Made by a program: the position numbers and the translations under genes. The notes beneath the pieces are model-generated. The model worked only from the letters and a program-made list of their open reading frames with translations, did not search any database and was not told where the DNA came from. A stretch of DNA of 64,000 nt from an uncultured delta proteobacterium (GTDB lineage: Bacteria; Myxococcota_A; Polyangia; Fen-1088): assembly GCA_963796685.1 (NCBI GenBank), contig CAWCMR010000006.1, positions 1-64,000 on the forward strand, given 5' to 3'. Position 1 is the first letter of the stretch. The number at the start of each line of letters is the position of its first letter. This document shows positions 36,041-52,419 of the stretch, in pieces.

Positions 36041-36044
36041 CCGA

Positions 36045-38021: not shown

Positions 38022-38089
38022 GAAATCGTTTCGGTACCGGGGGAGGGACTCGAACCCTCAAGTCCGTAAGGACGGTGGATTTTGAATCC
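38022..38089 (-). repeat. att site: duplicated 3' portion of tRNA-Leu
   Basis: Matches 52324-52391 and lacks the tRNA 5' part. Confidence 0.95.
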
Positions 38090-38240
38090 CTCTTTGACTG
38101 TATCGCCATGTCGCTCAAACACGCAAACACCTACAAAACAAGGGGTCTCCATTGTGGCACCTGTTGTGGCTTGAGTCATGAAAATGCACCAAATCGGTGA
38201 GATAAGCCACCGACTGGCAACAGACTGAAGTAGACTATTC

Positions 38241-38311
38241 CCGTGGGCAGCCGAGGGCCTAATTACCCCTTGGTGGCCGCCGAGCCTGCATCCTAAGCGG
38301 CCCGCCCACGG
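38241..38311 (+). ncRNA. Predicted three-way-junction RNA (C4/CI-like architecture)
   Basis: CCGTGGGC/GCCCACGG closing stem, CCGAGGG/CCCTTGG stem (9-nt loop) and GGCCGC/GCGGCC stem (16-nt loop). Confidence 0.55.
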
Positions 38312-38344
38312 TTCCTTTCGATCGGATGCAAAGGATGCAGAACC

Positions 38345-39145
38345 GTGACCCAGCCAACCCGACCGAAGGCCCGCCAAGCGAAGCGCCCTCGCGCTGGCGG
38401 CCCGAAGGCGCCCAAGGTGGCACCGGAGGCCCCGCAAGGCGTGGCGGCCCGGCAGAGGCCCGGCGCGCGACATTCCATAGTCCAGCCCGAAGCTACCGAG
38501 ACCGGGTACAGCAAGGCCGACTTTCTGCGCGATTTCGGCCACGATGCCGACTATCACGCCAAGTGTGATCGCGCCACGGCTGGACTGCGGGCACTGGCCG
38601 CGGGCAACCCACCGGCCGGCCGCAAAGATTGTGGGTGGTGGTGGTGCGAGAAAGACGACCTGTCTTCGCGTGAGCTGGCCTCCCTGCGAGGCGCATTGAA
38701 TACCCTACGCCAAGCCGGCGTGGACCCCAGCGGCCCGTGGGTTCGGAAGTACGGGAACCTCTACCGAATGCATGGAGCGCTACCGGATATCAAGGTGAGC
38801 GCCAGGGAGCAGGTATCCCGCGACATCGCGGCCCTTGAGAAAGTGCAGGAGTTGCTCGGCGGGTTGAGCAGGCACAATATTCCGACGAGCACGAACCGTG
38901 ATCTCGCGAATGAGCTCGACCGAGCCAAGGGCAGTACAGCGGCGGGGCCAGCCAACCCAACGAGGCGCGGACCCCCGGTTGACGGCGGCACCAGATGCGT
39001 GCTTCTAAATTACCGCGGGGACCGCCACTGGCCTCCCAACGTGATCGAAGCTTGCCTGATTCTCACCGGCGCACGTCGTGGGAGCGCCCGCGAATCGCGA
39101 GTCTTGAGCGAAATCGCCAAGAAGGCTCGGACAGCGGCGAAATAG
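38345..39145 (+). CDS. Hypothetical protein (first gene of the element)
   Basis: AAGGA plus GTG; 266-aa ORF filling the interval; no recognised motif. Confidence 0.6.
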   Translation: MTQPTRPKARQAKRPRAGGPKAPKVAPEAPQGVAARQRPGARHSIVQPEATETGYSKADFLRDFGHDADYHAKCDRATAGLRALAAGNPPAGRKDCGWWWCEKDDLSSRELASLRGALNTLRQAGVDPSGPWVRKYGNLYRMHGALPDIKVSAREQVSRDIAALEKVQELLGGLSRHNIPTSTNRDLANELDRAKGSTAAGPANPTRRGPPVDGGTRCVLLNYRGDRHWPPNVIEACLILTGARRGSARESRVLSEIAKKARTAAK

Positions 39146-39238
39146 CGGCGACAAGCTGCACCTGCACTTAATTGCGCCGTGCGTGGTGTGATTAGGTGCA
39201 TCGCCATGGGCGTGGGGATGGCTCATCGTCGCTCTACC

Positions 39239-39442
39239 ATGACGACGCAGACGAGGCTAGACCACGAGACGCGCGAGGCACTGCGCCGATACCTCGCCGA
39301 CCGACATTGGCGGCCCGCTATCCGCAGCATCGGGGTGACCGAGTCGGTCCTGCGACGGGCTATTTCGGGGCGTCTCATCCGAGGCGCCAGCGCGACCGCG
39401 ATCCGCATCGCCCTACTCGCGCAGCCGGAGCCCCGCCCATGA
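39239..39442 (+). CDS. Small HTH-like DNA-binding protein
   Basis: AIRSIGVTESVLRRAISG HTH pattern; ATGA coupling. Confidence 0.6.
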   Translation: MTTQTRLDHETREALRRYLADRHWRPAIRSIGVTESVLRRAISGRLIRGASATAIRIALLAQPEPRP

Positions 39443-39735
39443 CCGGCGCCGACCTGGCCACGGCCGCCGACGTCGAGCGCGTGCTTGCGCGCCAGGATGC
39501 CCTCGAGGCGAAGCTGGATCGCGTGCTGGCCGCGCTGCCCACGTCGTGGCTCTCGCTCACCGCCGCCGCCGAGCGCATGGGCGTGGACCCGAGGACGATC
39601 ACCGCCGCCATCTCGCGCGGGGAAGTAGTTGGGCGCCGGGTGGGACGACGGTGGGTAGTCGACGCGAACTCTATCCGCCCCGCGAGCGCGGCGGCGGTGG
39701 CGGCGATGGCGAGAGGGGCGAGGGCGGGACGATGA
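39439..39735 (+). CDS. Excisionase/AlpA-like HTH (HTH_17-like)
   Basis: WLSLTAAAERMGVDPRTI...ISRGE...RRVGRRWVV. Confidence 0.8.
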   Translation: MTGADLATAADVERVLARQDALEAKLDRVLAALPTSWLSLTAAAERMGVDPRTITAAISRGEVVGRRVGRRWVVDANSIRPASAAAVAAMARGARAGR

Positions 39736-41711
39736 CCGCACCCTTCGCCACTATCCCGTTTGTCGATCCCGTCGATAGCTTCCGCGACGCCATGGCGGCC
39801 GATGGACTCACTCCACCGCGCGAGATAGTTGTCGACCGAAAGATCCACCGCTGCGATGCCGACCGCAAGGGCGGCAAACGTGACGCCTGGTATGTCTTCT
39901 TCTCCGACGGAGTGCCGGCTGGCGCCTATGGGGATTGGGCAGAGGGCGAGACGCACAACTGGTGCGCGCGGCCCGAGAACAGCCTCACGCCCCAGGAGCG
40001 AGCGGCGTTTCGCACGCGCATGGACGCTGCCCGGCGAGCACGCGATGAGGAGATGCAGACGCAATACGCAGCCTCGGCAGCGTTGGCCGCTTCCACGTGG
40101 GGGCAAGCTACACAAGTCTTCGAGCCCTGCCCTGACTACCTCGATTGCAAAGGGGTGAAGTCGCACGGGCTGCGCGTGACCACGCGCGACTACGATTTCC
40201 CCTGCATCGACGGCAAACACACCATGCACGTGGCCACTGGCGCTCTTGTGGTGCCAGTCAGGACGGCCGATGGGAAGTTGACCAGCCTGCAATTCATCGA
40301 CGCCGAGGGGAAGCGATTCTTGCCGGGCGGGCGCATGCGTGGGTGCTTCTACTCAATCGGCGACATCGAGGGAGCGAAGCGGATCGGCCTCGCCGAAGGC
40401 TACACCACCGCCTCGACCATTCACGAGGCTACCGACCTGCCCGTGATTGTGGCCTTCTTCGCCGGCAACCTAGAACCCGTCGCCGAGTCGCTCCGCGCGA
40501 AATACCCGCGGACACAGTTTGTCTTCGGCGCGGACGACGATCATCTGCGCGAGAACAACCCCGGTGTCACGAAGGCGACCGAGGCGGCGAAGAAGTTTGG
40601 CGGGATCGTCGCGATCCCGGACTTCGGCACCGAGCGGGGCGAGAAAGACACGGACTGGAACGATCTGTCCAAGGCCCAAGGGCAAGGAGTCGTCAAGGAT
40701 CAATTCGAGAAGGCAATCGCGGCAACGGTTCCCCCGCTTGCGTCGGCCGTTGCGATTGAACTGTGGTCCAAGCCACTGCCCTCACCGATCCTGACACCGT
40801 TCTCGCCCTTGAATGACCTACTTGGTGGCGGTCTTCGTGGCGTGAACGTCTTGGCCGGCCCGACGGGCCGCGGGAAATCCGGCCTGGCTCTACATGTCGC
40901 ACGTGTTACGGCGCGGACGTTGCCCGTCTGCTACTTCTCCACCGAATTGAGCGACCGCCAAGCGCTCGCACGCATCGCCGCCCAAGAGCTGGGCCGGCCC
41001 TGGCGCCCACTGTACGAGGGCAGCGCACCAACCGGGATCGTTGTCGCCCACGCGATGGAACCCCTCAAATTGCGCGTGGTCGTGATTCGTTCGGTGACCG
41101 AACTACTCGACGCCCTGCGAGGGATTGAGGAATTCGAGGGGCAACCACCTTTTGTCGTGCTGGACTACTTGCAGGGCCTGGCCCGCAACCCCGACGAAGA
41201 TCGCCGGCTTGCCGTGGGGGCAGTCTCGGACGGGATCACCACATGGAGCCGCACCACGGGGGGAGTGGTGCTCGCCGTGTCGAGCATCGCCCGCGCGAGC
41301 TATTTCAACACCGACACCAAGGGCGCCGCCGACTTCGTGAACGCGGCGAAGGAATCGGGCGACATCGAATTCGACGCTTCATCGGTGCTGTTCTTGGATG
41401 TGGCGGCCCCACCCTTGGGCGGGAAGTCTGAAGGCCGCTTGCACGTGAGCAAGTCTCGATTCGGCACCGTGGGCACCGTGGGAGTCATCTTCGATGGCCC
41501 GACCGGAACCTTCGAGGAAGACGCCGAGGGCGGACTGTCCATTGACCAGCGCGCGGTTCTGGACGCCATCAACGAGGGCGCCAAGACCCAAGACGAGATC
41601 GCCAAGGCGGCCGGCGTCCGTAAGGCGAAGGTTGGGCCGGCCCTCCGAGCGCTCCAAGACCGCGGGCTTATCGGCAGCCGACCACGCCAAGACGAGGAGG
41701 GCCAGCCATGA
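39732..41711 (+). CDS. Toprim primase fused to a DnaB-like helicase
   Basis: SLQFI...G.KRFL.GG, AEGYTTA, GADDD, DWND (Toprim); GPTGRGKS, VVLDYLQ, KESGDIEFDA, KSRFG (SF4 helicase); C-terminal wHTH. Confidence 0.9.
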   Translation: MTAPFATIPFVDPVDSFRDAMAADGLTPPREIVVDRKIHRCDADRKGGKRDAWYVFFSDGVPAGAYGDWAEGETHNWCARPENSLTPQERAAFRTRMDAARRARDEEMQTQYAASAALAASTWGQATQVFEPCPDYLDCKGVKSHGLRVTTRDYDFPCIDGKHTMHVATGALVVPVRTADGKLTSLQFIDAEGKRFLPGGRMRGCFYSIGDIEGAKRIGLAEGYTTASTIHEATDLPVIVAFFAGNLEPVAESLRAKYPRTQFVFGADDDHLRENNPGVTKATEAAKKFGGIVAIPDFGTERGEKDTDWNDLSKAQGQGVVKDQFEKAIAATVPPLASAVAIELWSKPLPSPILTPFSPLNDLLGGGLRGVNVLAGPTGRGKSGLALHVARVTARTLPVCYFSTELSDRQALARIAAQELGRPWRPLYEGSAPTGIVVAHAMEPLKLRVVVIRSVTELLDALRGIEEFEGQPPFVVLDYLQGLARNPDEDRRLAVGAVSDGITTWSRTTGGVVLAVSSIARASYFNTDTKGAADFVNAAKESGDIEFDASSVLFLDVAAPPLGGKSEGRLHVSKSRFGTVGTVGVIFDGPTGTFEEDAEGGLSIDQRAVLDAINEGAKTQDEIAKAAGVRKAKVGPALRALQDRGLIGSRPRQDEEGQP

Positions 41712-41748
41712 AGCGTCAGACCGCCCAAGTCGAGTTTTTTTCCCTACC

Positions 41749-41963
41749 AGTTCCGGGCAAGACCTTAGTTCCCAGACGCACCAAGACGCCTTGTTTTGTG
41801 GGGGCGCATGATGCGTCAGAAAATGCCCTCGGGAACCGTTCCCGTTTGGTTCCCGGACGCTCCAAGACAAATGATTCTCCGACGGAGAGTGATAGTTCCC
41901 ACCCCGGAACTACCCTACGGGGGGGACGTTAGTTCCCACCCCCGTAGGGGGTAACTGGGAACT
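41749..41963. promoter_or_regulatory. Putative replication origin (iteron cluster)
   Basis: About nine GTTCC(C)/(G)GGAAC motifs in both orientations, TAGTTCCCACCCC twice, CCCTACGGGGG/CCCCCGTAGGG inverted pair, immediately after the primase gene. Confidence 0.6.
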
Positions 41964-42419
41964 GCGGGCCGAAAACGGATCTGAAACCGGCCTACCAGGA
42001 CTCACTACGAACACCACCACGGCCAGGCCCCTGGCGCCTCTCGGCTGGGGCTACGACTGGCGCATGCAGCTTGTAGACCTTCGCGGGTTGCGACCTGGTG
42101 AAGATGGCAGGCCGCCGATCTTCGTTTCGCCCAAGCCGGATGGGCTGCAATGACCGATTGCCAAAATGGCACGACCTGGAATCGGCATCGTCAGGCAACG
42201 GATGGCCAGTGTCGAGCCGAGCTCACCGACGGAAAACGCGGCGGCGGGACGGTGGAGTTGGCATCCGAGCACGCCCACGATTCACGATTTCCGACACGGC
42301 CCATCCTTCGGGCTGCTCCTTTCTTGTCCGGCGCTTCTGGCGCTCGAGCGCGGTCGCGATCCCGCGTTCTGTTGGACCGGCCGTGTCGGGAACTTTTCAA
42401 CGAACGAAAGGACCTGACC

Positions 42420-42638
42420 ATGGCCGACATAATGCCTTGCGATATTTGTTCCCTTCCCCTCGACGACGGTTCCCATTTTTCGATGGGCCGCACCTGGTGC
42501 TCGAAGTGTTGGCGTGGTGCGCAAGGGCCGGCAACGCCGCAGCCGGTATCGGAGGCCGGGAAGGCGGCGATTGCGGCCTGGCTGCGACCACGCCCACGTG
42601 GACAACTGGCGCTTCCCTTGCGTGGAGCCAGGTCATGA
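42420..42638 (+). CDS. Small CxxC..CxxC protein
   Basis: GAAAGGA RBS; CDIC...CSKC. Confidence 0.6.
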   Translation: MADIMPCDICSLPLDDGSHFSMGRTWCSKCWRGAQGPATPQPVSEAGKAAIAAWLRPRPRGQLALPLRGARS

Positions 42639-42976
42639 GCGCGCCCACCACCACGAGGCCGAGCTTGCGCAAGGCCATCAACGGTATGTGCCGGGAGTGC
42701 ATCTACGACTCTTCGCCCGGCAACGGAACATGGCGCGAGCAAACCGAGGGCTGTACATCCCCGAAGTGCCCCCTCTACCCGCTTCGACCACTCACGACCG
42801 CGGGAACTGAGGCCAGGGCGCGACTATGGGCCGAACAGGGCCAGGACGGGCCAATAGCTCTCAAAGAAGGGGCCTTGGACACGGCCGAGGCACGGGGAGG
42901 CCAAGAAGCGGCCAACGCGGTGTGCGCGCCGTCAGGAAGCGCGATTCTGGACGCTGGGAGCGATGCCCATGGGTAA
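42635..42976 (+). CDS. Small phage-type Cys4 zinc-binding protein
   Basis: RKAINGMCREC...GC....CPLYPLRP; ATGA coupling. Confidence 0.65.
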   Translation: MSAPTTTRPSLRKAINGMCRECIYDSSPGNGTWREQTEGCTSPKCPLYPLRPLTTAGTEARARLWAEQGQDGPIALKEGALDTAEARGGQEAANAVCAPSGSAILDAGSDAHG

Positions 42977-43479
42977 GCGTAAGCCACCCGAACCGCCCGC
43001 GGTGCCGGTCTTGTCGGTGGTGCCGCCGGCGCCGTCGGAGGGAGCGGCACCAGATCGCCAGGTATCGCCCGACGCTGAGGAACCGATGAACGCCCGTGAG
43101 CTGGCGTTCATCGAGGCGCGATCTGAGGGCAAGACGATAAAGGCCAGCGCCGCGGCGGCGCGCCCTCCGTATCCCTACTCCACCGCGCGGGTTTTGGACG
43201 ACCGACAAGACATTCGAGCGGCCATTCGCAAACGCGCGAGGGAGGCCGTCTCATGCGGTGTTCATACTCTGGCGCAGTCTTCATCGGTAGCGGCCAAGGC
43301 ATTGGTGGACGTTGCGGAAAATGGAGCAAGCGGCGATGGGCCTCGAGTGAGCACCGCGAGAGCCTGCCTAGAGCTCTCGAATCCAGTCCTTGAAGATTGA
43401 CGACTTTCTCGAACGACTCGAGGCGCTCGAACGCCAGGGACAACAGCCGGGCAAGCCCGGTTTCCAACGTAGGAGCTGA
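42969..43479 (+). CDS. Small-terminase-like HTH protein (one +1 frameshift at ~43380)
   Basis: MNARELAFIEA...GKTIKASAAAA HTH, RVSTARACLE. The corrected frame continues IQSLKIDDFLERLEALER (span 511 = 3n+1). Confidence 0.55.
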
Positions 43480-43483
43480 GACC

Positions 43484-43729
43484 ATGGACATCCAATCATT
43501 GAAGGCCAGACTCGACCGCTTGCTCGAAACCCAGGGGCCGCCCGTCGGACCACCCGAGTGCATTGTGCTTTTGTCTGGCAAGGACGGGCACGGGCCCGCC
43601 GCGGATGAGGGCTTGCCACTCCCGCGGGTTGCATGGAGGAACTCGAAGGCGGCGTGCATCTTGTACGACCCCTCGGTGGGCCAGCCCAGCGCCGCGGAGA
43701 TCCGCCGGCTAATTGAGGGCGCTTCGTGA
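43484..43729 (+). CDS. Small protein, 'SLKARL' N-terminus
   Basis: AGGAG RBS; MDIQSLKARLDRLL. Confidence 0.7.
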   Translation: MDIQSLKARLDRLLETQGPPVGPPECIVLLSGKDGHGPAADEGLPLPRVAWRNSKAACILYDPSVGQPSAAEIRRLIEGAS

Positions 43730-43941
43730 ACCTCGCGAGCTTGAAGGCCCGCCTGGCCTCCCTTGCACGCGCAACCGCGGCCCATGACCTGCCTGTCAAC
43801 TGGCCCGACCCGATCGGCGATTGGGTGCGTTCTCAGATAGCCGATGGCGCAGCACCGAGAACCGCGACAACACCAGAAGCGCGAGCCGAAGCCGAGGCGA
43901 GGTTGAGCACGTGGCTCGCGCGAGGAGCGGTGACGCCATGA
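43726..43941 (+). CDS. Small protein, 'SLKARL' N-terminus
   Basis: GTGA overlap; MNLASLKARLASLA. Confidence 0.7.
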   Translation: MNLASLKARLASLARATAAHDLPVNWPDPIGDWVRSQIADGAAPRTATTPEARAEAEARLSTWLARGAVTP

Positions 43942-44189
43942 TCAACCTTTCGAGCCTTCGGGGCCAAATAGAAAGGCTTAGAATATTGGCCGAATCCGAG
44001 AGCCCGCGGCGAAAACCCACGACGAGCGAAATCCGCAACGAGCTCGAGCGCGTGCTCGCCGAGATCGAGAGTCGGCCGGCCGACGCTCCACCACACCCCG
44101 ATGTCACAGGGCTGCGCGAGGCGCAGCAGGAGCTCGCCCGCGTCCTAGTCGTCCTCAACAGGCTGTACCCACAGGAGGCGTCGGCATGA
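43938..44189 (+). CDS. Small coiled-coil protein with a related N-terminus
   Basis: GAGGAG RBS, ATGA overlap; MINLSSLRGQIERLR. Confidence 0.7.
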   Translation: MINLSSLRGQIERLRILAESESPRRKPTTSEIRNELERVLAEIESRPADAPPHPDVTGLREAQQELARVLVVLNRLYPQEASA

Positions 44190-44638
44190 CCGCGCAAACG
44201 TCCCTGCCCGGCTGCGCGGTGGCGCCGGGGGAGAACCGCGCGACGCTCGAGCAAGACCTTCGCGGCCAGGTTGCGATCTGCCTCATGGCACTTTTCTGTT
44301 GGGTTGAACACCACGGCGGCCGGACGGTGTTGATCGACGGCACAGTGGAAAGGTTCATTGCTGCCAGCGGGACCTGTGACCCGCAAATCAGTCGAGCCAT
44401 CCGAAACACAAGAAGCGTGCTGGCGCGCTACCTCGCCAGCGGTGCGGCCGTTCCCTCGTGGCTGCCGCCGAGCATTCTTGAGCTGCTGCAAGAGCCCTGG
44501 TGTGCGCGCGACCTGGCGCCCTCGTCGGAGACCTCATCCAACGATCTACCCAACCGTTCACCGACGCTGGCCCCTCAGTCCAACATCGCCCCTGTGGCGG
44601 TTCTGAACCGAATGCAACCGAAACCTGAAAGGACATGA
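44186..44638 (+). CDS. Hypothetical protein
   Basis: AGGAGG RBS, ATGA overlap. Confidence 0.6.
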   Translation: MTAQTSLPGCAVAPGENRATLEQDLRGQVAICLMALFCWVEHHGGRTVLIDGTVERFIAASGTCDPQISRAIRNTRSVLARYLASGAAVPSWLPPSILELLQEPWCARDLAPSSETSSNDLPNRSPTLAPQSNIAPVAVLNRMQPKPERT

Positions 44639-44964: not shown

Positions 44965-44998
44965 TTGCCACAACAGCCAATTGAAAGGAACCTTCCCC

Positions 44999-45886
44999 AT
45001 GCCCGAAACTCTGAAAGACCTACTCACTAAACCGCTCAAAGACGGCGCCAAGCGTTTTCTCGTCGACGAGGCCATCATGAAAGCCGCCACTCCCGCCGGC
45101 CGGTGGAGGTTGTGCACTGACGCCGAGATTGCGGAAGCCTTGCCCGCGCTCGCCAAACTGATCGGCAAAGAGTCGAAGCTGCCTTCTTGGCAGCGGCGCC
45201 TTGGCGTATTGCTGGACAAGCCCGGCGAGTGGGTTCTCTCAATAGAGGCACTCGGCCCGAGCTGGGTGGAGTGGCTTCCGCATTATCCTACGGCGGCAAT
45301 AACCATTGCGGTGCCGCTCGCAGTTGGGGTTTCGATCTTGATGTCCCCGAACTCGCCCGAGGTGGAATTCAAACGCCGCCGGGACTTGCACGAGGCGTAC
45401 AGGAACGCCGAATCCGAGAAGGCGCGCATCGCCGCCGCGAAGAGGGATGCCGAAATTGCGGAGACACAGCGCAAGGATAACGAGCGCCAGCAATTTCGAG
45501 CCGCCGCATGGGAGCAATTGAGCGCGCTGGAGCGCTGCGCGGCCCGACTGGCCCTGCTTGTTGGCGAGCGTGACCCACAATTGGCAACGGACATCCGAGC
45601 CGCAATTGCCGGTGCTGGCGATACGAAGAACTTCCCCCGAACCGTTTGGTGGAAGAACATGGAGGGAGCCACGGGCCTGCAAGCTGCTGCCGCCAAAGAA
45701 GAGCAACAGGCGACCTTTGCGCGCCGCCAAAGGGCCGAGGGCATTCTCTCTCACATCCCGGCGAAAACTCGCTGGATTTTGGAAGTTCAGCACGGCCAAG
45801 ACAACGTCGAGGCGCAGCTCGCAGCGTGGGAACAACTGCAGGCCCAGCAAGCAAAGGCCGATAAGCAGAACGGGAGGGCCGCCTGA
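44999..45886 (+). CDS. Hypothetical protein with a coiled-coil region
   Basis: GAAAGGA RBS; 295 aa; TGATG coupling to the original baseplate-J start. Confidence 0.7.
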   Translation: MPETLKDLLTKPLKDGAKRFLVDEAIMKAATPAGRWRLCTDAEIAEALPALAKLIGKESKLPSWQRRLGVLLDKPGEWVLSIEALGPSWVEWLPHYPTAAITIAVPLAVGVSILMSPNSPEVEFKRRRDLHEAYRNAESEKARIAAAKRDAEIAETQRKDNERQQFRAAAWEQLSALERCAARLALLVGERDPQLATDIRAAIAGAGDTKNFPRTVWWKNMEGATGLQAAAAKEEQQATFARRQRAEGILSHIPAKTRWILEVQHGQDNVEAQLAAWEQLQAQQAKADKQNGRAA

Positions 45887-45898: not shown

Positions 45899-47309
45899 GG
45901 CTCTCCTGACATCTTCATGGAAGCGCGGGCACCTTGAAGACGGGATGAAGGACAACGCCTGAGCAGCAGAGGAAGATGAAGCCAATGAGGGCTTGAGCGT
46001 TGTGGAAGCCATAGGCCCTGCGGGTGATGACCCTGATCTTGCCATTAAGGCCCTCGGTTCTTCCGTTATTGAGCCCTGTGGCGACAATGGCCACGATGCC
46101 GTCCAGGTATTTCTTGATGGTCGCGGCGACCTTCTTGAAGGAAGGTAGTCTGGATCGCCTGGCCCAACTGATCCATTCTTCGAGCTTCTGTTTGACGACG
46201 TTGACCTGGCGACGACCGAGGATGTCGCAGATGGCGATCTTGAGCAGGTAGCCGCGATAGAGTCGGGCATTGGTCTTCGGGAGGGTCGACAGCCTCTCAG
46301 ACTCGGCCCTGGATAGGTTCCACGGATTCTTGAGCAGAAGGTACTTGGTCTTCTTCAGTTGCCCGCGTTCGTCGGTGTCCTCCAGGAGTCGGACCTCCGC
46401 ACGCCGGAGCTCGTCGAGTGCTTCCTGCACGAGTCTCTGAACGTGGAAGCGGTCGAAGACGATCTGCGCTTGTGGCGCTCGCGAGGTGACCGCGTCGATG
46501 TAGGCCGCGGACATGTCGATGGTGACGGTCTTGAGCTTGCTGGTTCGTTCCGGGCCGAGAGCGTCGAAGAAGCAGCCGAGCGTCGCAGCGTTCTTGCCCT
46601 CGTGGGCCCAGACGACCCGCTGCGAGACGTGGTCGACAACGACGGTGACGTACTCATGGTGCCGCCGGTACGACAACTCGTCGACGCCGATGTGTTCGAG
46701 GTCCTCGAGGAGAAGGCTAGGATCTCGGTGCCGCGGCACCACCCGCTGGATGATGGCGCCGACGGTGCGCCACGCGATGCGCATGGTTTCGGCCACCATC
46801 GTCTGGCTTGCTTGTTGGGCCAGATAGGCCACGTGGTCCTCGAAGTCACGCGTGAAGCCGACCTTCGGCTCGGCCCAAGGGACCATCTCGATGACCACGC
46901 CGCACCGAGGACAGTCAACCCTGCGCAGGGTGTAGCGCAGAAGAACCTCCATCCCGCACGCGTCCAGATGCCGCCAGTTCCGAGCCCGAGCATCGAACAC
47001 GTCATGGACCCGACATCCGCAGCCTGAGCAGTAGGGAACGGTCGTCGTTGGCGCCACGTGCACCAATATGCCAAGCAGATCGAATTCGACCGCCAGGACA
47101 CGGGTATGTGGAAATTGGAGTAGGTTTCGGAATAGGGTGGTTGCGCGCATGGGCTCCTGGGCTTGTGGGTTCTAGACAAGCCACACGATACCCCAGGTGC
47201 CCGTGCGCACTTCGTCTCCACCTCACCCGAAACTCATGCCGCCCACATCTCCGTCGGCGACGTGCGTCGCACCTACGAGATCTCCCCTTACGAAGATGTC
47301 AGGAGAGCC
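45899..47309 (-). mobile_element. ISL3-family insertion sequence (1411 bp)
   Basis: 18-bp perfect IRs GGCTCTCCTGACATCTTC; 8-bp TSD CCTTTTCG at 45891-45898 and 47310-47317. Confidence 0.97.
45915..47150 (-). CDS. ISL3 transposase
   Basis: CSGCG..C.RC zinc finger, GVDE, IDMSAAY, FDRFHV, EGLNGKI..I.RRAYGF. Confidence 0.96.
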   Translation of the reverse strand: MRATTLFRNLLQFPHTRVLAVEFDLLGILVHVAPTTTVPYCSGCGCRVHDVFDARARNWRHLDACGMEVLLRYTLRRVDCPRCGVVIEMVPWAEPKVGFTRDFEDHVAYLAQQASQTMVAETMRIAWRTVGAIIQRVVPRHRDPSLLLEDLEHIGVDELSYRRHHEYVTVVVDHVSQRVVWAHEGKNAATLGCFFDALGPERTSKLKTVTIDMSAAYIDAVTSRAPQAQIVFDRFHVQRLVQEALDELRRAEVRLLEDTDERGQLKKTKYLLLKNPWNLSRAESERLSTLPKTNARLYRGYLLKIAICDILGRRQVNVVKQKLEEWISWARRSRLPSFKKVAATIKKYLDGIVAIVATGLNNGRTEGLNGKIRVITRRAYGFHNAQALIGFIFLCCSGVVLHPVFKVPALP

Positions 47310-48302
47310 CCTTTTCGCACAACAAAAGACCGCCCAAGGCTTCACGCGCGTCTCACTGCCACAAATCATCGCCTCGCTCGAAGCCCTCTGGAAGGGCGCC
47401 TACGGGTCAAGCGTCGACCTGGACCCACGTTCGGCGGACGGCCAGATGATTGGCGGCATCGCCGAGATGATGGACGATCTCAACAGTGCCGTGGCCGACC
47501 TGATGCACGTCGCGAACCCGAATGGGGCCACGGGAGCATTCCTCACGAACATCGCCGCATTGACCAACGTCACCCGCAACAGTGACGAGAAGGACGCCAA
47601 CCTACGCATTCGTCGGCAACAGGCAACCGCCACTGCCTCACAGTCGATGAGCGACACGCTATTGGCGGCCTTGCTGGCACTTCCCGGCGTGCTCGACGCT
47701 TGCGTGCGCGAGAATGCGACGAGCGAGCCAGGTTTGATTGGCGGCCTTACGATCAACCCCAACACCGTGCGGGCCGTTGTCGAGGTGCAGCTCGGCGGCG
47801 CCGCGGACCCGGCTACCACGACGACGAGCACGGACCCGATCGCCAACACCATCTTCGCGCTCAAGAGCATGGGGTGCGGGACGCAGGGGGGAACAGGCAA
47901 GGGGCCGCTCGACGCCCTTGGCGTCTCGCATGACATCTACTATGACCTGGCCACGGCGCTGGACGTGCAAGTCGCAGTTACGATCTCAACCCGCACGAAC
48001 TGGCCAAGCGATGGAGGCGCCCAAATCGCGGCGTTGATTCTCGGGTGGGCGAACGGCACGGATCCAGTCACGGGCAAACCCAACTGCCCGATTTCGGGAA
48101 TCGAGCTCACGCCGGGCTCCGATCAGGGCGCCTTGAGCTGGACCGATGTGGTCGGGTCATTCCTTGGCCAGGTTCCTGGGTTCGACTTCGTGAGCCTGAC
48201 GTTCAGCTTGGACGGCGGCGCCACGTGGAGCACGAACGGACAAAACTTGGTCATTCCTTTCACCCGCTTTGCCTCGATCAGCAGCATCTCGGTGGTGGCC
48301 GA

Positions 48303-48497
48303 GTGAGCCTGCGTGCCGCGGTCCCGGCCAAGGGCATGCTCGCCCTACTCGAAGTCCGCAAGGAAGGGTTGCAGGCGATGATCCGCGAACGCTTCTGCGC
48401 TGCCCGCCTGGCCGGCACCGTGGCCGATGTGTCGGCACTGACCGCGACCTTGCGCGCGGTGAAGGCCTCGCTCAAGGCAGCCATGGGCAAGCGGTGA
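48303..48497 (+). CDS. Small hypothetical protein
   Basis: GTGA overlap with the baseplate-J stop; helical 64 aa. Confidence 0.5.
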   Translation: MSLRAAVPAKGMLALLEVRKEGLQAMIRERFCAARLAGTVADVSALTATLRAVKASLKAAMGKR

Positions 48498-48545
48498 GAG
48501 GATGGCCAAACTTGACCCGAGACCGAACGGCGCGAGGATGCGGCC

Positions 48546-48857
48546 ATGTCGCACGCCGAGCAGGGCAAGGTATTCTCGCAAGTCATGCTCGGCGCTGCTT
48601 GCGCACTCGTTGCTACCGCTATCGGTTTTTGGGGTGCTGGCGCCGAATGGGGGAGCGTAAGAGTGATCGTGGCTCTTTCTCTTGCCGCAGGGACACTCAC
48701 CTTCGCTCTTGTGGGATTTCTGCAAACGCGGTTCGCAGAGGAAAAAGAGAAGCGCGAGATCGAAGCCAAGGCGGCGGTAGCGAAGGAAGCCGAGGCAGAG
48801 AAAGAGAAGGCCGCGAAGGCCAAGGCGGACGAGGACATTTTCAGCTACTACAAGTAG
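48546..48857 (+). CDS. Small two-TM membrane protein with a charged tail
   Basis: Two hydrophobic segments followed by an E/K/A coiled coil. Confidence 0.65.
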   Translation: MSHAEQGKVFSQVMLGAACALVATAIGFWGAGAEWGSVRVIVALSLAAGTLTFALVGFLQTRFAEEKEKREIEAKAAVAKEAEAEKEKAAKAKADEDIFSYYK

Positions 48858-49063
48858 CCGTCCGCGTTTCCACATCAGGCCGCGACACTTGCCACTTGCG
48901 CGGGTGGCACCGCGCTTCGGCGAGCCACACATCGAGGACGGGTAGCGGATGAGTAGTCCGATGCGCTACGGGCGGTTTCCCCGTCGGTGAAGGCCAGGCG
49001 AGGCGCGGGGCGCCGTGGCCAAAGTGCAGCCATTCGGGGCGGATTAGATGGGCGTGACGATTT

Positions 49064-49096
49064 GTTCTTGACATAGATAAGAACGCGGTTCTTAAT
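49064..49096 (+). promoter_or_regulatory. Sigma70-like promoter with overlapping operator repeats
   Basis: TTGACA (49068-49073)-N17-CTTAAT; GTTCTT...AAGAAC-GCG-GTTCTT. Confidence 0.55.
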
Positions 49097-49103
49097 TACG
49101 AGT

Positions 49104-49361
49104 ATGGAAATGGCTCAAAACTCGCACCGTTCTCAGAAATCGGCGAGACTCCCCGACGTGGGACGTCCCCGCGTTCGAGCACTCACCGAAACGATCAACA
49201 TCGGCTTCAAAGCCGAGCCCGATTTGGTGCGCGCTCTCGACGCCGAGGCAGCGCGACTCACGGCCGACCGTGGTCCCGGTGCTTCCAAGGTGAGTCGCAC
49301 CGAAGCAATCAAGGTCATCTTGGCCAAGTGGCTGGCTGACCAGTCCAAGCCCCGCCAGTAA
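49104..49361 (+). CDS. Ribbon-helix-helix (CopG-like) regulator
   Basis: GRP...TINIGFKAEPDLVRALDAEA...SRTEAIKVIL. Confidence 0.7.
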   Translation: MEMAQNSHRSQKSARLPDVGRPRVRALTETINIGFKAEPDLVRALDAEAARLTADRGPGASKVSRTEAIKVILAKWLADQSKPRQ

Positions 49362-49461
49362 CCCGCGCGCCGTAGCCGCGCACGTACCCGCCCCACAAGA
49401 GAAAGGGCGCCACCTTTTGCCGAGGTGCGCCCGCGTTCGACCCTCCGTGAAAGGAATCGAC

Positions 49462-49845
49462 ATGTCCACCGTACCACGCCCGACGACGAAGACCAGCAAA
49501 CCACGAGAGAGAACCGCGACCCCGGCCGAGCTCGCCGAGGACACCCGCCGAAGCCGTGAGGCTCGCGAGGCACACCGAGTGCTGGCGCCCGCGCCCGCCG
49601 AGGGCAACCTGTGCGCGTGTCTGGTACTGCTTGCCCGCTTTCGGAAGTGCTCGGTTTGTGCTCGCCCGGTGCTGTACGTGAACGAACAGGCCAGGACCGA
49701 CGGCGACGTGGAGTGTCCCGCTTGCATCCAGGTTCGCACCGACCTGGCCAAGCGCCTTCGCTTCGTGAAGCTGGCCAGCCGTGTCCGCTCCCACCTGACC
49801 GACCTGTTCAGCACGGCCAACGACAACGCTTCGGTGGCATCATGA
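49462..49845 (+). CDS. Cys4 zinc-finger-like hypothetical protein
   Basis: GAAAGGA RBS; CSVC...CPAC. Confidence 0.6.
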   Translation: MSTVPRPTTKTSKPRERTATPAELAEDTRRSREAREAHRVLAPAPAEGNLCACLVLLARFRKCSVCARPVLYVNEQARTDGDVECPACIQVRTDLAKRLRFVKLASRVRSHLTDLFSTANDNASVAS

Positions 49846-50066
49846 ACGCGAACGTCTCAAGCCTGCCCTTCGAGCTCGACCGAGCCAAGGCGGACACCGA
49901 GCGCTACCGCCGCGTCTTCTGCCAGGTGGCCCGGTGTGCCGACGTTGTCGTTCAGGCGGTGGCCGAGGGCGCTATCAGCCACAACGAAGCGTTGCAGGCC
50001 ATGCGCCGGCACGCCTGCACCCTGGTATCCGCCGTCGAGGCGCTGGCCGCGAGGGCGCGCTCATGA
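49842..50066 (+). CDS. Small hypothetical protein
   Basis: ATGA overlaps on both sides. Confidence 0.55.
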   Translation: MNANVSSLPFELDRAKADTERYRRVFCQVARCADVVVQAVAEGAISHNEALQAMRRHACTLVSAVEALAARARS

Positions 50067-50167
50067 TCGCCGGCATGAAGCCTCTGGATCTGGCGGCCGG
50101 CATCGCGGCGATGGTCGTGATTCTCCTCGCTTGGTCGTGGGCGATGACGTGGAGCCGCGAGCCATGA
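50063..50167 (+). CDS. 34-aa single-TM peptide
   Basis: ATGA coupling; hydrophobic LAAGIAAMVVILLAWSW. Confidence 0.45.
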   Translation: MIAGMKPLDLAAGIAAMVVILLAWSWAMTWSREP

Positions 50168-50370
50168 GCCTGACGCAGCGCTGGCACGCCCCGGCCGCCA
50201 CGGTCAGGGTGGGCGGCGAATTCGACCGAGGCGGCAAGCGCGGCTTCGTCTCGCTGGCGTGCTCGCCCTCGACCTGCCTTCTCACCCGCGGCGCCGCGCG
50301 GGATGTGGCGCGCACGCTGATTCGATTCGCAGAAGGGGTGCGGCCGGCACCACGCAAGAAGCCCGCGTAG
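50164..50370 (+). CDS. Small hypothetical protein
   Basis: ATGA coupling; LLTRGAARDVARTLIRFAE helix. Confidence 0.5.
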   Translation: MSLTQRWHAPAATVRVGGEFDRGGKRGFVSLACSPSTCLLTRGAARDVARTLIRFAEGVRPAPRKKPA

Positions 50371-50473
50371 GTCACGCGCTGGTGACTCTCCCCGATGCCA
50401 CGGAGGGAGTCACGGGCGAGGAACCCGCCGAGCTGGCCGGACGCCAGCAACGAACCTTGACGAAAGGCACCCC

Positions 50474-51091
50474 ATGGAAACGAACGACACCACGATCACG
50501 CCCGAAACCCTGGCCACGCTCGCCACGACTGCCGCCGCGGTGGCGCTCGAGCACCAGGAATACACCGAGGCTCGAACCGCAGAGGCCGCAGCCGAGGCCG
50601 CGCTACTCGAGCGAATCGTCGAAACCGTCAAGCCGGCGCTGCGAGCCTTGGCCAGCGCCATCAAGTCGCGCGACTACTCGACGGGCGGGCGCAACGGCTG
50701 CAACCCGGTCCACACCTACGACACCTTCACCGAGCGCGGGGTTTGCTTGGTGGATGGCTACGACCACGACAAGGACGAAACCGGCAACCGTGGCAGCAAC
50801 GGCGGTTCCCGGCTGTACCTTCTCGATGATGGGAGGCTGGCGGAAGTCGCGCGCGAGGGCACGTGGTCATGCTGGCAGGGCGAGGCGGATACCTGGGAGG
50901 CCGAGTTGACCATCGTCACGCCAGCCGAGGCGGTGGCCCGGTACGAGCTCGCCAGCATCGTCGGGACCTTGAACGCCAAGCTGGAAGAGCAGGCCAAGGG
51001 CTCGAAGGCGAAGCGCACCAAAGCTGCCACGGCCCGCGCGGCGAAGCTGGCGGCGGTGGGCGCGCTCGTGGGGGTGGCCAATGGCGCGTAA
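50474..51091 (+). CDS. Hypothetical protein
   Basis: GAAAGG RBS; 205 aa with coding-like GC3; overlaps the integrase start. Confidence 0.75.
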   Translation: METNDTTITPETLATLATTAAAVALEHQEYTEARTAEAAAEAALLERIVETVKPALRALASAIKSRDYSTGGRNGCNPVHTYDTFTERGVCLVDGYDHDKDETGNRGSNGGSRLYLLDDGRLAEVAREGTWSCWQGEADTWEAELTIVTPAEAVARYELASIVGTLNAKLEEQAKGSKAKRTKAATARAAKLAAVGALVGVANGA

Positions 51092-52325
51092 GGCGAAGCG
51101 GCGGCGGCCCCGTGGGATGGGCACTCTCTGGCAGCGCGGGGACTGGTGGGTAGTCCAGTGGCGGGAAAAGGGGCGCCGCAAGCATGCGAAGTTCCCCGAC
51201 CGCGACACGGCCGAGAAGGTGCTCGCGAAGATCCTCTCGGACGTGGCACTCAACCGCCACGGCATCGAAACCGAGAAGGCGCCCTCGCCACTGCTGAGCG
51301 TGCTCGCCAAGCCTTGGTTGGCAACCCGCAAGTCCACGCATCGCAGTTGGGACGCGGACGCCGGGCGCTGGAAGCTGCACCTTGCCCCGAGGTTCGGCAA
51401 GCGGGAGCCCGACGAGGTAGACCAAGCGGCCATCCGGCTGGCCGTCGAAACCTGGTTGGCCGAGGGGTTGACGCCTTCCACGTGCATGCGGTGCGTGTGC
51501 TTGCTGTCTTCGCTCTACACCGACCTCTGCGAGCGCGGGCTGGCCAAGGCGAACCCGGCGAAGGGGCTACCGCGGGCGACCCGGCGCCTCTTGAAGTCGG
51601 CCCACGACCCGAAGACCACGCCCTTTGTGGAGAAGCTGGCGGACGTCCAGCGCATCTATCGCGCCTTGCCCGAACCTGTGAACACCGCCTATGCCGTCGG
51701 CGCCATGGCCGGCTTGCGGGTGGGGGAGCTTCTGGCCCTTCGGTGGGTGAACGTAGACCTCGAGCACCGGCGGCTTGTCGTGTCGGAGCAAGTCCAGGAC
51801 GGCAAGGTGTTCCGCCCGAAGGATCTGGACTCCCGCGTGGTCCCCATCCTGGACAGCCTCTTGCCGGTCCTGCAAGCCGCGAAGCTGGCAAGCGGTGGCG
51901 TCGGGCTGGTAGTGCCGCCCATGCGCAGCAACAAGACCCGCAAGCACCTTGGTCCCCACACGCTGGGGAAGTTCCTTCGGGAGGCCCTGGCCGAGCTAAA
52001 CAAGGATGGGGAGGCACTGCCGGCCGTGAACTGGTACCAGGCGACGCGCCACACCTTCGCCTCGCAGTGGGTCATGGCGGGCGGCAGCATCGAGAAGCTA
52101 CGCGAGGCGATGGGGCATTCCACGGTCCTGGTTACCGAGCGGTACGCGCATCTTCGAGGCGACGTGTTCAACGCGGTAGACCTGGGACGCATGGCGGTCG
52201 ACTTCTCGGCGCCCGCAGGCAAGGTGCTACCCCTGGTGCAGCCTGGTGCCGTAAGCCACCCACTGGCAACAGAGGCAGAATCGACCGAGGCGGAAGGGGT
52301 GGCGGAAGTGAGTGCAACCCTGTGA
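51081..52325 (+). CDS. Tyrosine integrase
   Basis: Arm-binding N-terminus, AGLRVGELLALRW, K, YQATRHTFAS, MGHS...TERYAH; abuts the att site. Confidence 0.93.
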   Translation: MARKAKRRRPRGMGTLWQRGDWWVVQWREKGRRKHAKFPDRDTAEKVLAKILSDVALNRHGIETEKAPSPLLSVLAKPWLATRKSTHRSWDADAGRWKLHLAPRFGKREPDEVDQAAIRLAVETWLAEGLTPSTCMRCVCLLSSLYTDLCERGLAKANPAKGLPRATRRLLKSAHDPKTTPFVEKLADVQRIYRALPEPVNTAYAVGAMAGLRVGELLALRWVNVDLEHRRLVVSEQVQDGKVFRPKDLDSRVVPILDSLLPVLQAAKLASGGVGLVVPPMRSNKTRKHLGPHTLGKFLREALAELNKDGEALPAVNWYQATRHTFASQWVMAGGSIEKLREAMGHSTVLVTERYAHLRGDVFNAVDLGRMAVDFSAPAGKVLPLVQPGAVSHPLATEAESTEAEGVAEVSATL

Positions 52326-52336
52326 AATCGTTTCAG

Positions 52337-52419
52337 TACCGGGGGAGGGACTCGAACCCTCAAGTCCGTAAGGACGGTGGATTTTGAATCCACTGCGTTT
52401 GCCATTCCGCCACTCCGGC
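52337..52419 (-). tRNA. tRNA-Leu(CAA)
   Basis: GCCGGAGTGGCGGAATGG, GTGGA-TTCAAAA-TCCAC, variable arm, GAGGG-TTCGAGT-CCCTC. One A:C mismatch in the acceptor stem. Confidence 0.92.

What the first reader, a model, noticed from the sequence alone, without database searches (positions are those of the whole stretch)
38022..52391. Capsid-less phage-satellite-like element in tRNA-Leu, with an unusual gene set
Seen: 68-bp att repeats; ~12.9 kb without the IS; integrase, xis-like HTH, Toprim-DnaB fusion, iteron cluster, TerS-like gene and about 15 small, translationally coupled genes, all on one strand. I recognise no capsid, portal, TerL, lysis or conjugation gene. Known: PICI and P4-like satellites are of this size and use int-HTH-primase-ori-TerS logic, but typically have a divergent repressor switch or Psu/Sid, neither of which I recognise. 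Inference: a distinct satellite family in a myxobacterium-like host, combining possible RNA-based control with one tail-derived gene.
Basis: partly seen in the sequence, partly recalled or inferred. Interest (0 to 1): 0.82.

Follow-up and report, generated by a model that had tools for sequence, protein, structure and literature searches.

The report
Myxobacterial satellite-like element with baseplate gene
A 14-kb mobile island sitting in a leucine tRNA gene of a soil myxobacterium belongs to a common, previously undescribed family that looks like a phage parasite (satellite) but unusually carries a phage tail baseplate gene.

Summary
Window 38007-52391 is an integrated element bounded by a 68-nt repeat (67 of 68 identical; 56 nt exact, equal to the 3' part of tRNA-Leu(CAA)). 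All its genes lie on one strand: RDF/excisionase, Toprim-DnaB primase-helicase, a cluster of GTTCCC iterons, two zinc-ribbon proteins, a TerS-like HTH protein, many small overlapping ORFs, a baseplate-J gene, an RHH regulator and a tyrosine integrase. A recent ISL3 insertion has an 8-bp target duplication.

The element is not an orphan. The same gene order recurs at other tRNA genes in related Myxococcales MAGs and soil or peat metagenome contigs, and twice more in the same genome. The TerS-like gene occurs in 22 of 89 genomes of the order, with up to 6 copies.

Baseplate-J is a recurrent slot in the family; one relative also has a tape-measure gene. The window's allele nests among J genes of 47-65 kb phage contigs (63% identity) but lacks a 95-residue internal domain.

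No capsid, portal, TerL or lysis gene was found in the element, and no helper prophage in the 88.6%-complete genome.

Best reading: a new PICI/P4-like satellite lineage carrying tail genes. The lifestyle is inferred, not shown. RNA-based control is not supported; a conserved leaderless RHH promoter is the likely switch.

The parts
38007..38089 (.). attL: copy of the 3' part of tRNA-Leu plus its downstream flank (exact core 38034-38089)
38203..38224 (+). 22-nt motif TAAGCCACC(N)ACTGGCAACAGA, candidate integrase arm-type site (P' side). The assignment is inferred.
   Evidence: The motif occurs only twice in the window, 0 expected; D8
38345..39145 (+). g01, 266 aa, unknown. Its basic N-terminus is conserved in relatives.
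39179..39442 (+). g02, small HTH-like protein, unknown function
   Evidence: 57% identity to G036:C39
39436..39735 (+). excisionase / recombination directionality factor (HTH_17-like)
39729..41711 (+). replication protein: Toprim primase + DnaB-like helicase + C-terminal winged-HTH-like stretch
41740..41965 (.). Putative origin: GTTCCC/AGTTCCCA iterons and CCAAGAC repeats. The ORF 41708-41932 called here is probably not a gene.
42420..42638 (+). g06a, CxxC...CxxC zinc-ribbon protein
42635..42976 (+). g06b, Cys-rich protein (CRECIYDS...CPL motif), conserved in relatives
42963..43400 (+). TerS-like HTH protein (candidate small terminase / packaging specificity factor)
43484..44189 (+). g09, g10, g11: three small overlapping ORFs sharing an M-x-L-x-S-L-K/R-A-R-L N-terminus
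44186..44638 (+). g12, 150 aa, family-conserved, unknown
44635..44964 (+). g13, 109 aa, unknown
44996..45886 (+). g14, 296 aa, family-conserved, always just upstream of the J slot; unknown function
45899..47309 (-). ISL3-family insertion sequence (transposase 45915-47150), 8-bp target duplication at 45891-45898 / 47310-47317, inserted in codons 3-5 of the J gene
47296..48306 (+). Baseplate J / wedge-like protein, 336 aa. It lacks a 95-residue internal domain. Its present start codon lies in the IS end; the native start is at 45886.
48291..48497 (+). g16b, 68 aa, family-conserved, unknown
48546..48857 (+). g17b, small hydrophobic (membrane-like) protein with a charged tail
49051..49103 (+). AT-rich promoter TTGACA-17-TTAATT with GTTCTT/AAGAAC repeats. 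The ATG lies 6 nt after the -10 element, so the mRNA is probably leaderless.
49104..49361 (+). g18, ribbon-helix-helix (CopG-like) regulator, present in all relatives
49462..50370 (+). g19 (Cys-rich), g20, g20b (34-aa hydrophobic), g20c: overlapping small genes, conserved in relatives
50474..51091 (+). g21, 205 aa, unknown. It sits in a variable cargo slot between g20c and int.
51081..52325 (+). tyrosine integrase
52252..52273 (+). second copy of the 22-nt motif (candidate arm-type site, P side)
52309..52419 (-). attR repeat (52309-52391) within and beside the intact tRNA-Leu(CAA) gene (52336-52419)

Best explanation
The element belongs to a previously undescribed lineage of phage-satellite-like integrative elements of soil Myxococcales. 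It works like a PICI or P4-type satellite.

Shown:
- It is a tRNA-integrated, att-bounded, 12.9-kb element (plus an IS).
- It has its own integrase and RDF, its own primase-helicase with an adjacent iteron origin, and a family-specific TerS-like DNA-binding protein.
- It has a conserved promoter driving an RHH regulator.
- It carries a baseplate-J gene whose nearest relatives sit in the baseplate modules of 47-65 kb phage contigs.

Inferred:
1. The RHH protein keeps the element quiet.
2. On infection or induction of a helper phage, the element excises (Int + RDF acting on the 56-nt core and the two 22-nt arm motifs).
3. It replicates from the iterons.
4. Its DNA is directed into helper capsids by the TerS-like protein working with the helper's large terminase.
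5. The J protein (and the tape-measure protein in relatives) is built into, or interferes with, the helper's tail. This would either fit satellite particles with a matching or altered baseplate, or lower helper yield.
For: (1) Bounded, tRNA-integrated and the right size.

(2) Int, RDF, primase-helicase and iterons.

(3) The family is real.
- The same gene order occurs with different tRNA targets in G035 (tRNA-Thr, 10.0 kb), G033 (tRNA-Val, 7.5 kb), G046 (10.5 kb), G049, G036 (two elements) and G077.
- It also occurs in the own genome at C15 (tRNA-Gly, 12.3 kb) and in metagenome contigs.
- The TerS-like gene is in 22 of 89 genomes of the order, with up to 6 places per genome and 3 in the own genome. 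Multi-copy carriage is usual for satellites.

(4) TerS-like.
- 16, 12, 8 and 6 of 42 family members hit four different TerS PHROGs; best E-value 2.4e-10.
- The ESM Atlas nearest clusters are phBC6A51-type HTH proteins, commonest in Uroviricota; score 0.91.
- In every relative with context, the gene sits in such an element, never beside a TerL.

(5) Modular replacement, as in satellites. The TerS-like/g14 module is combined with a DnaB-type primase-helicase (window), a D5-type primase (own C15), a DnaC-like loader (G036:C43), or a P4-type integrase + AlpA + D5 primase (own C13).

(6) J gene.
- Full-length homologues with up to 63% identity lie in tape-measure/baseplate modules of IMG/VR contigs.
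- J recurs after g14 in G049 and G036:C43, and between the TerS-like gene and int in G077.
- In the J tree the window allele is sister to a phage allele (SH-aLRT 98). Three other element alleles form their own clade (85), so the slot was filled at least twice.

(7) No capsid, portal, TerL, sheath or lysis hit in the element.

(8) Precedent: satellites carrying a tape-measure gene (abstract of PMC12822802).
Against: - No helper was found. The own genome (88.6% complete) gave no hit for Baseplate_J, sheath, HK97 capsid, Terminase_6N, TerL_ATPase or portal, and has no second J copy.
- The TerS likeness is limited to the roughly 40-65-residue HTH region in the 4 of 10 members that hit. The window protein itself hits nothing. 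A profile search of PDB gives LacI HTH at E = 0.03 ahead of a small terminase at E = 0.44.
- No TerS-like relative was found in IMG/VR by pattern scan, in 50,697 phage records, or in 5 phage records carrying the related J.
- Apart from J, nothing in the element is shared with those phages except one weak g11 hit.
- No excision or circle junction was seen, but only contigs of 4 soil runs could be laid.
- The window's J allele has lost 95 residues and its native start is cut off by the IS, so in this copy it may be non-functional.
- SatelliteFinder treats tail genes as forbidden in PICI (PMC10085698 passages).
Confidence: 0.55

Rival explanations
1. It is an autonomous integrative replicon that does not depend on a phage: a 'hitcher' or integrative plasmid-like island. 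The TerS-like protein is merely an HTH regulator or partition-type DNA binder. The baseplate-J gene is cargo that serves the host or the element as an anti-phage decoy, working by dominant-negative interference with tail assembly.
For: - TerS similarity is confined to the HTH, and LacI-type HTH scores best in PDB.
- No phage-borne relatives of the TerS-like gene were found.
- No helper was found in the genome.
- The window J lacks an internal domain, as might suit a poison subunit.
- Tail-assembly-blocking defences are known on PICIs, prophages and P4-like satellites (abstract of PMC11364771).
Against: - No relaxase, coupling protein or other transfer function was recognised.
- PADLOC gave no credible defence hit for the 10 proteins tested.
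- Other element-borne J genes are full length, and one stands with a tape-measure gene. That fits virion building better than a decoy.
- The overall int / RDF / pri-rep / TerS-like layout is the PICI layout (PMC10085698 passages).
Confidence: 0.25
2. It is a decayed prophage remnant. What is left of a tailed phage is its integration and replication module and a stray baseplate gene.
For: - J is a genuine virion gene with 63% identity to phage alleles.
- The window allele carries an internal deletion and an IS insertion.
- Some relatives (both G036 elements) show frameshifted genes.
Against: - The compact 7.5-13 kb architecture with intact att repeats recurs in many genomes and at different tRNAs.
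- ORFs are intact and overlapping.
- None of the other genes has a relative in the J-bearing phage contigs.
- No capsid, portal or TerL fragments were detected.
Confidence: 0.1
3. It is the complete genome of a small non-tailed or otherwise unconventional virus. Its structural proteins would be among the unknown ORFs (g01, g12, g14, g17b, g21).
For: - All genes lie on one strand, and there are several small hydrophobic proteins (g17b, g20b).
- Most ORFs are without known relatives.
Against: - There is no packaging ATPase or recognisable capsid protein.
- The presence of tailed-phage parts (J, and a tape-measure gene in a relative) and a TerS-like gene points to dependence on a tailed phage.
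Confidence: 0.05

Closest known systems
PICI (phage-inducible chromosomal islands), as modelled in SatelliteFinder (de Sousa et al. 2023, PMC10085698; passages read)
   Same: - Similar size of about 10-15 kb, site-specific integration and a tyrosine integrase.
- An HTH regulator/excisionase, a primase-replicase with an adjacent origin, and a TerS-type gene.
- No head, portal, TerL or lysis genes.
- Several copies per genome.
   Different: - Host phylum: neither 'Myxococc' nor 'Deltaproteobacteria' occurs in that paper's main text.
- The integrase is at the far end and co-directional with everything else.
- There is no divergent repressor. An RHH gene behind a conserved leaderless-type promoter stands in its place.
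- The TerS-like protein has no hit to any TerS model by itself.
- It carries a tail (baseplate J) gene, which is a 'forbidden' component in the PICI model.
- No capsid-morphogenesis gene was recognised.
P4-like satellites
   Same: - tRNA-associated integrative elements with a primase-helicase and an AlpA/Xis-type HTH.
- Two sister elements in the same genome do have a P4-style Toprim+D5_N primase (C15). C13 has a P4-type integrase (Arm-DNA-bind_3) and AlpA, plus an ORF read by eye as a D5-type primase.
   Different: - The window element has a DnaB-type (not D5-type) helicase, and its integrase hits only the catalytic-domain model.
- No Psu, Sid/Delta or Epsilon equivalents were recognised.
- It has a TerS-like gene, which P4 lacks (recalled).
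VEIMEs / PICMIs (marine virion-encapsidated integrative mobile elements; PMC9618062 passages, PMC10803314 abstract in a search listing)
   Same: Small integrative elements with integrase, primase/helicase, AlpA/excisionase and TerS homologues, and little else that is recognisable.
   Different: - Those were defined by being found inside virions; that is not tested here.
- 'Baseplate' does not occur in the VEIME paper's main text.
- VEIME TerS genes resemble those of co-occurring phages, whereas no phage-borne relative of this TerS-like gene was found.
EPIPs of Mycolicibacterium (bioRxiv preprint PMC12822802; abstract and opening text as printed in the outline)
   Same: Satellites that lack capsid, tail and holin genes yet carry one tail-assembly gene (a tape-measure protein). 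One relative of the window element (G049) also has a tape-measure gene.
   Different: - Different host phylum.
- EPIPs were isolated as free particles.
- No baseplate J is mentioned in the abstract.
- No sequence relation was tested here.

Membership tests
PICI (SatelliteFinder definition) | integrase | tested here: met
   Phage_integrase 2.5e-12, 47.4 bits against a cut-off of 27.1
PICI (SatelliteFinder definition) | regulation module homologous to alpA, merR or stl | tested here: inconclusive
   The xis-like ORF scores HTH_17 at 25.5 bits (cut-off 27) and phrog_7506 RDF at 3.2e-10. No Phage_AlpA hit. The RHH g18 is another candidate regulator (RHH_1 19.3 bits, cut-off 20.5).
PICI (SatelliteFinder definition) | primase-replicase module | tested here: met
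   phrog_2249 primase 6.4e-77, DnaB_C 8.7e-19, with iterons directly downstream
PICI (SatelliteFinder definition) | capsid morphogenesis gene (facultative outside Proteobacteria) | tested here: not met
   No Pfam or PHROG head-related hit for any ORF. Folds could not be tested.
PICI (SatelliteFinder definition) | small terminase subunit | tested here: inconclusive
   The window protein has no hit. 16 of 42 family members hit TerS phrog_4044, but in the 4 of 10 members inspected that hit, the matches cover only the HTH.
PICI (SatelliteFinder definition) | no tail or holin genes (forbidden components) | tested here: not met
   A baseplate J/wedge gene lies inside the element. SatelliteFinder itself could not be run.
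PICI / any phage satellite | induction by, and packaging in particles of, a helper phage | not testable with these tools
   Only assembled contigs of 4 soil runs could be laid, and no att junctions were seen. No helper was found in the genome.
P4-like satellite | Psu, Sid/Delta, Epsilon and an alpha-type (D5/P4 helicase) primase | tested here: not met
   No hits to such functions. The helicase is DnaB-type. The P4 component names are recalled.
cfPICI | own capsid, portal, head-tail connectors, TerL | tested here: not met
   None detected in any ORF
Prophage remnant | fragments of head / packaging / lysis genes, and no conserved small-element architecture | tested here: not met
   No such fragments. 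The architecture is conserved in several relatives at different tRNA genes.
Baseplate J / gp47 / wedge family (for ORF 47296-48306) | sequence homology over the whole length to phage baseplate J proteins | tested here: met
   phrog_6 at 1.3e-19; PDB wedge proteins at 1e-7 to 1e-3; 63% identity to 420-aa proteins carrying PF04865. A 95-residue internal segment is missing.

The most novel reading that the evidence does not exclude
These are 'tail-tinkering' satellites: a lineage of Myxococcota phage parasites that carries no head-remodelling genes. Instead it keeps a dedicated slot (g14-J, sometimes with a tape-measure gene) for helper-matched tail and baseplate parts, and refills it from the current helper phage. 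With these parts the satellite either re-tools the helper's tail for its own particles (host range, tail length) or sabotages helper tails. This would be a hijacking strategy aimed at the tail rather than the capsid.
Probability: 0.3. Interest if true: 0.8.

Novelty: new variant of a known kind. Interest (0 to 1): 0.62.

Why it matters
Phage satellites are well described mainly in Proteobacteria and Firmicutes. [quoted passage not shown]

Here a common, multi-copy family in soil myxobacteria has the satellite backbone and repeatedly carries baseplate-J, and once a tape-measure gene. The TerS-like marker is in 22 of 89 genomes of the order. If these elements are satellites, three things follow:
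- The host range of satellites extends to Myxococcota.
- Current finders systematically miss a class.
- Tails, not only capsids and terminases, become a target of hijacking.

The family also offers a defined set of unknown conserved proteins (g06a/b, g12, g14, g19) and a simple RHH/leaderless-promoter switch to test.

Tried and rejected
- RNA-based control: Rfam at E <= 1 found only the tRNA in 36000-54000. The 42270-42425 leader folds with z = -2.66 and 41965-42270 with z = +0.30. No covariation test was made. Dropped as unsupported.
- Sigma-70 consensus scan: 0 promoter-like sites. The RHH promoter was found by eye and by alignment instead.
- Defence systems: PADLOC on 10 element proteins gave only 3 marginal hits at E about 0.008. 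Not pursued.
- g14: 3 word-indexed relatives, none with a Pfam domain on record; 147 profile relatives; 3 single weak PHROG hits among 117 members. The Atlas model of a homologue is poor (pTM 0.26) and gave no usable hit. Function unknown.
- Phage relatives of the TerS-like gene: none in IMG/VR by pattern, none in 50,697 phage records, none in 5 J-bearing phage records that are 41-72% complete.
- Sheath in those 5 phage records: none. Whether the candidate helpers are contractile is therefore open.
- Helper in the own genome: no hit for 6 Pfam families, and no second J. The assembly is 88.6% complete.
- Sequencing runs: 4 DNA runs of one soil study hold 0.16-0.23 of the words, mostly the IS. 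No RNA holder is listed. Laying them showed relatives of the element and one contig that joins g14 to J without the IS (skips 1478, with 59 letters between). There was no attB or attP joint.
- The G035 226-aa protein in the TerS slot has no Pfam or PHROG hit.
- Tree: two rows were extracted in the wrong frame (58 and 62 aa), so I discard it. One search repeats it with corrected rows and without the partial row PH_L041.
- Supplementary files of the papers were not seen. The SatelliteFinder profile lists (which tail profiles are forbidden) may bear on the PICI membership rows.

Full report
OBSERVATION.

tRNA-Leu(CAA) lies at 52336-52419 on the minus strand. Its 3' 56 nt are repeated exactly at 38034-38089. 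With the downstream flank the repeat reaches 83 nt at 90% identity, and 38022-38089 matches its partner in 67 of 68 positions (read from the printed copies). An 18-nt core word occurs only at these two places in the window (0.04 expected).

Between the repeats, base composition and third-position GC pick out one strand of genes.

A 22-nt motif, TAAGCCACC(N)ACTGGCAACAGA, occurs only twice in 64 kb. One copy lies 36 nt before the right repeat and the other 114 nt inside the left one. In a circularised element these would flank the core, as integrase arm-type sites do. That is an inference.

GENE CONTENT.

Recognised by Pfam or PHROGs:
- A recombination directionality factor/excisionase (39436-39735).
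- A Toprim + DnaB_C primase-helicase with a winged-HTH-like tail (39729-41711).
- An ISL3 transposase (45915-47150, minus strand).
- A baseplate wedge/J-like protein (47296-48306).
- A weak RHH (49104-49361).
- A tyrosine integrase (51081-52325).

No ORF gave a capsid, portal, large terminase, sheath, tube, lysis, relaxase or coupling-protein hit (same calls). PADLOC gave nothing credible for the 10 proteins tested.

Directly after the helicase gene, all four exact AGTTCCCA words of the window fall in 41767-41963. They sit amid further GTTCCC and CCAAGAC repeats. The first ~210 nt of this stretch are nearly identical to the G035 relative, whose helicase protein is only 84% identical. I read this as the origin. 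The ORF 41708-41932 is probably not a gene, because the frame plot is flat there.

Fourteen gene junctions overlap start with stop (coordinates).

THE IS.

The IS spans 45899-47309 with perfect terminal inverted repeats. The 8-bp duplication CCTTTTCG lies at 45891-45898 and 47310-47317. Fourteen full-length, near-identical copies lie in the genome, so the insertion is recent.

Removing the IS joins the g14 stop (TGA 45884-45886) to an overlapping ATG (45886). This gives a J protein starting MSLFAQQKT, the same start as the G036:C43 copy. The IS therefore sits in codons 3-5 of J. An in-frame ATG in the IS end now gives MSGEPLFAQQ.

A contig of a soil metagenome joins g14 to J without the IS.

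THE FAMILY.

The primase-helicase finds relatives in 9 of 89 genomes of the order at E <= 1e-30. The relatives' records are titled Myxococcales or 'delta proteobacterium' MAGs.

Related elements are bounded by their own tRNA-derived repeats:
- G035: 10.0 kb at tRNA-Thr.
- G033: 7.5 kb at tRNA-Val.
- G046: 10.5 kb.
- The own genome's contig C15: 12.3 kb at tRNA-Gly.

tblastn with the window's proteins shows one recurring order: g01 - g02 - xis - replicase - (ori) - g06a - TerS-like - small 'SLKARL' ORFs - g12 - g14 - [J] - g16b - RHH - g19 - g20c - [cargo] - int - tRNA.

In G036 the same tRNA-Leu(CAA) locus, with syntenic flanks, holds a different member. Its int is 72% identical and its RHH 100% identical.

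The replicase is exchangeable:
- DnaB-type primase-helicase (window).
- Toprim + D5_N primase (own C15).
- DnaC-like loader (G036:C43).
- In own C13, a P4-type integrase plus AlpA and an ORF I read by eye as a D5-type primase, combined with the same TerS-like/g14 module.

THE TerS-LIKE GENE.

The window protein has no hit in Pfam, PHROGs or PDB. A profile of five family members finds 44 protein clusters. Only one of them, the weakest hit, has a Pfam domain on record.

Scanned one by one, 16, 12, 8 and 6 of 42 members match four TerS PHROGs, best E 2.4e-10. Of ten members looked at in detail, four hit, and only over the HTH region.

The PDB profile search puts LacI-type HTHs (E = 0.03) before a small terminase (E = 0.44). 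The ESM Atlas places a 70%-identical homologue next to 'phBC6A51 family HTH' clusters that are commonest in tailed phages (score 0.91). That is a lead only.

Every relative with enough context sits in an element of this family, never next to a large terminase. No relative was found in phage collections.

The gene marks the family well. It is in 22 of 89 genomes of the order, mostly in two genera, with up to 6 places per genome and 3 in the own genome. It is in 5 of 401 genomes (own included) of a phylum-wide sample.

I call it TerS-like. The function is inferred.

THE BASEPLATE GENE.

The 336-aa protein matches solved baseplate wedge proteins. It also matches about 420-aa proteins, some carrying PF04865 and one named gp47/JayE by its source. 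Cultured-phage relatives are annotated baseplate J/wedge at <= 32% identity.

Against the best homologue, residues 6-95 align to 3-92 and residues 98-333 align to 188-417. An internal 95-residue segment is therefore missing in frame. The copies in G049 and G036:C43 keep it.

Full-length homologues lie in IMG/VR contigs of 47-65 kb, within runs of ORFs whose sizes fit a tape-measure/baseplate module. Nothing else of the element is found in four such records read whole, except one weak g11 hit.

J is not unique to the window element:
- It follows g14 in G049 and G036:C43.
- It lies between the TerS-like gene and int in G077.
- It lies 1.8 kb from an int and tRNA-Lys in G054.
- G049 also has a 561-aa tape-measure protein (phrog_8125, 2.4e-57) just before g14.

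In a tree of 16 J proteins the window allele is sister to a phage allele (SH-aLRT 98) inside the phage clade. The G049, G077 and G054 alleles form their own clade (85). Starred branches force at least two origins (quick method, midpoint root; one search is discarded).

REGULATION.

The only strongly AT-rich stretch of the element lies before the RHH gene. It reads TTGACA, 17 nt, TTAATT, with the ATG 6 nt further on and GTTCTT/AAGAAC repeats across the spacer.

The -35 element, the -10 element and the close ATG align in 9 of 9 family members. The spacer varies with the RHH type. I infer a leaderless, autoregulated RHH operon running into int.

No divergent repressor exists. No support was found for RNA-based control.

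HELPER.

The own genome (88.6% complete) gave no hit for Baseplate_J, sheath, HK97 capsid, Terminase_6N, TerL_ATPase or portal. Each of these searches rang in the control genomes. There is also no second J copy.

The five J-bearing phage records have no sheath hit but are only 41-72% complete. A helper is therefore not identified.

COMPARISON.

By the SatelliteFinder description, the PICI core is integrase, regulator, primase-replicase, capsid morphogenesis and TerS, with tail and holin genes forbidden (passages of PMC10085698). Against this the element meets two features clearly and two doubtfully. It lacks capsid morphogenesis and breaks the no-tail rule.

It is not P4-like in its helicase and lacks recognisable Psu/Sid, though sister elements use P4-type parts. 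It resembles VEIMEs and PICMIs in minimal content (search listing). It resembles EPIPs in carrying a tail-assembly gene (abstract and opening text as printed in the outline).

Full-text searches for 'phage satellite' with 'Myxococc' listed two papers, neither about such elements by title or abstract. A search joining satellite, baseplate, tape measure, PICI and helper phage listed none, by title or abstract, that describes a satellite with a baseplate gene.

VERDICT.

The element is a member of a real, common and so far undescribed family. Its most likely nature is a phage satellite of PICI/P4-like logic with an unusual tail-gene slot (confidence 0.55).

The main rival is a phage-independent integrative replicon whose TerS-like protein is a regulator and whose J is defence cargo (0.25).

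Noticed in passing
window 45899-47309; G000 contigs C2, C6, C8, C10, C14, C16, C25, C26: The ISL3-family IS is present in 14 full-length, near-identical copies plus 2 fragments in the genome. One fragment lies at window 1-109, so the contig starts inside a copy. It looks like an actively expanding IS that probably breaks the assembly.
   Followed up: partly
window 36647-38006: A low-GC (56-58%) 1.36-kb stretch lies between the end of synteny with G036 (36647) and attL. On the minus strand it holds a gene-like region split over three frames. This region is 50-57% identical in translation to a gene at L051 4927-5840, upstream of xis in the G049 contig. It may be a relic of an earlier element at the same tRNA, but no further tRNA-Leu fragment was found.
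   Followed up: partly
L052 (G036:C43) about 13130-13660: A run of several hundred T (poly-K in translation) follows the TerS-like gene. Several genes of both G036 elements are frameshifted. This is more likely assembly or long-read error than biology.
   Followed up: no
L018 6274-7418 (G035 element, left part): Seven copies of a 65-nt unit at multiples of 108 nt (36 codons) lie inside the att-bounded G035 element. This suggests a repeat-protein cargo gene (Sel1/TPR-like by period only).
   Followed up: no
L089 (G000:C13) 8600-9088 and 9804-17854: A third TerS-like/g14 element in the same genome lies beside tRNA-Met. Its P4-type integrase and AlpA are confirmed by Pfam; an ORF I read as a D5-type primase is judged by eye. 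It is followed by a 162-aa ORF that looks PIN-like by eye and then by a translation-GTPase-like gene, read by eye as lepA.
   Followed up: partly
L018 12700-13380 (G035): In the slot where other members have the TerS-like gene, G035 has an unrelated 226-aa protein with an N-terminal 'KKGETGNPRG' motif and no Pfam or PHROG hit. This may be a non-orthologous replacement.
   Followed up: partly
window 49104-49361 vs L054 4183-4440: The RHH protein is 100% identical between the window element and the G036:C39 element. Neighbouring genes are only 48-54% identical (g16b, g19) and int 72%. This suggests exchange of the regulator together with its promoter as a cassette.
   Followed up: partly
G089 (IMG/VR record of L022) 13349-13486: The small ORF g11 has one weak match (53% over 47 residues, E = 1e-6) in the phage record whose J is closest to the window's. 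It is the only other link between element and phage.
   Followed up: no
window 15587-15672 and 16654-16745: Two tRNA-Ser genes (TGA and GCT anticodons) lie about 1 kb apart, far from the element.
   Followed up: no
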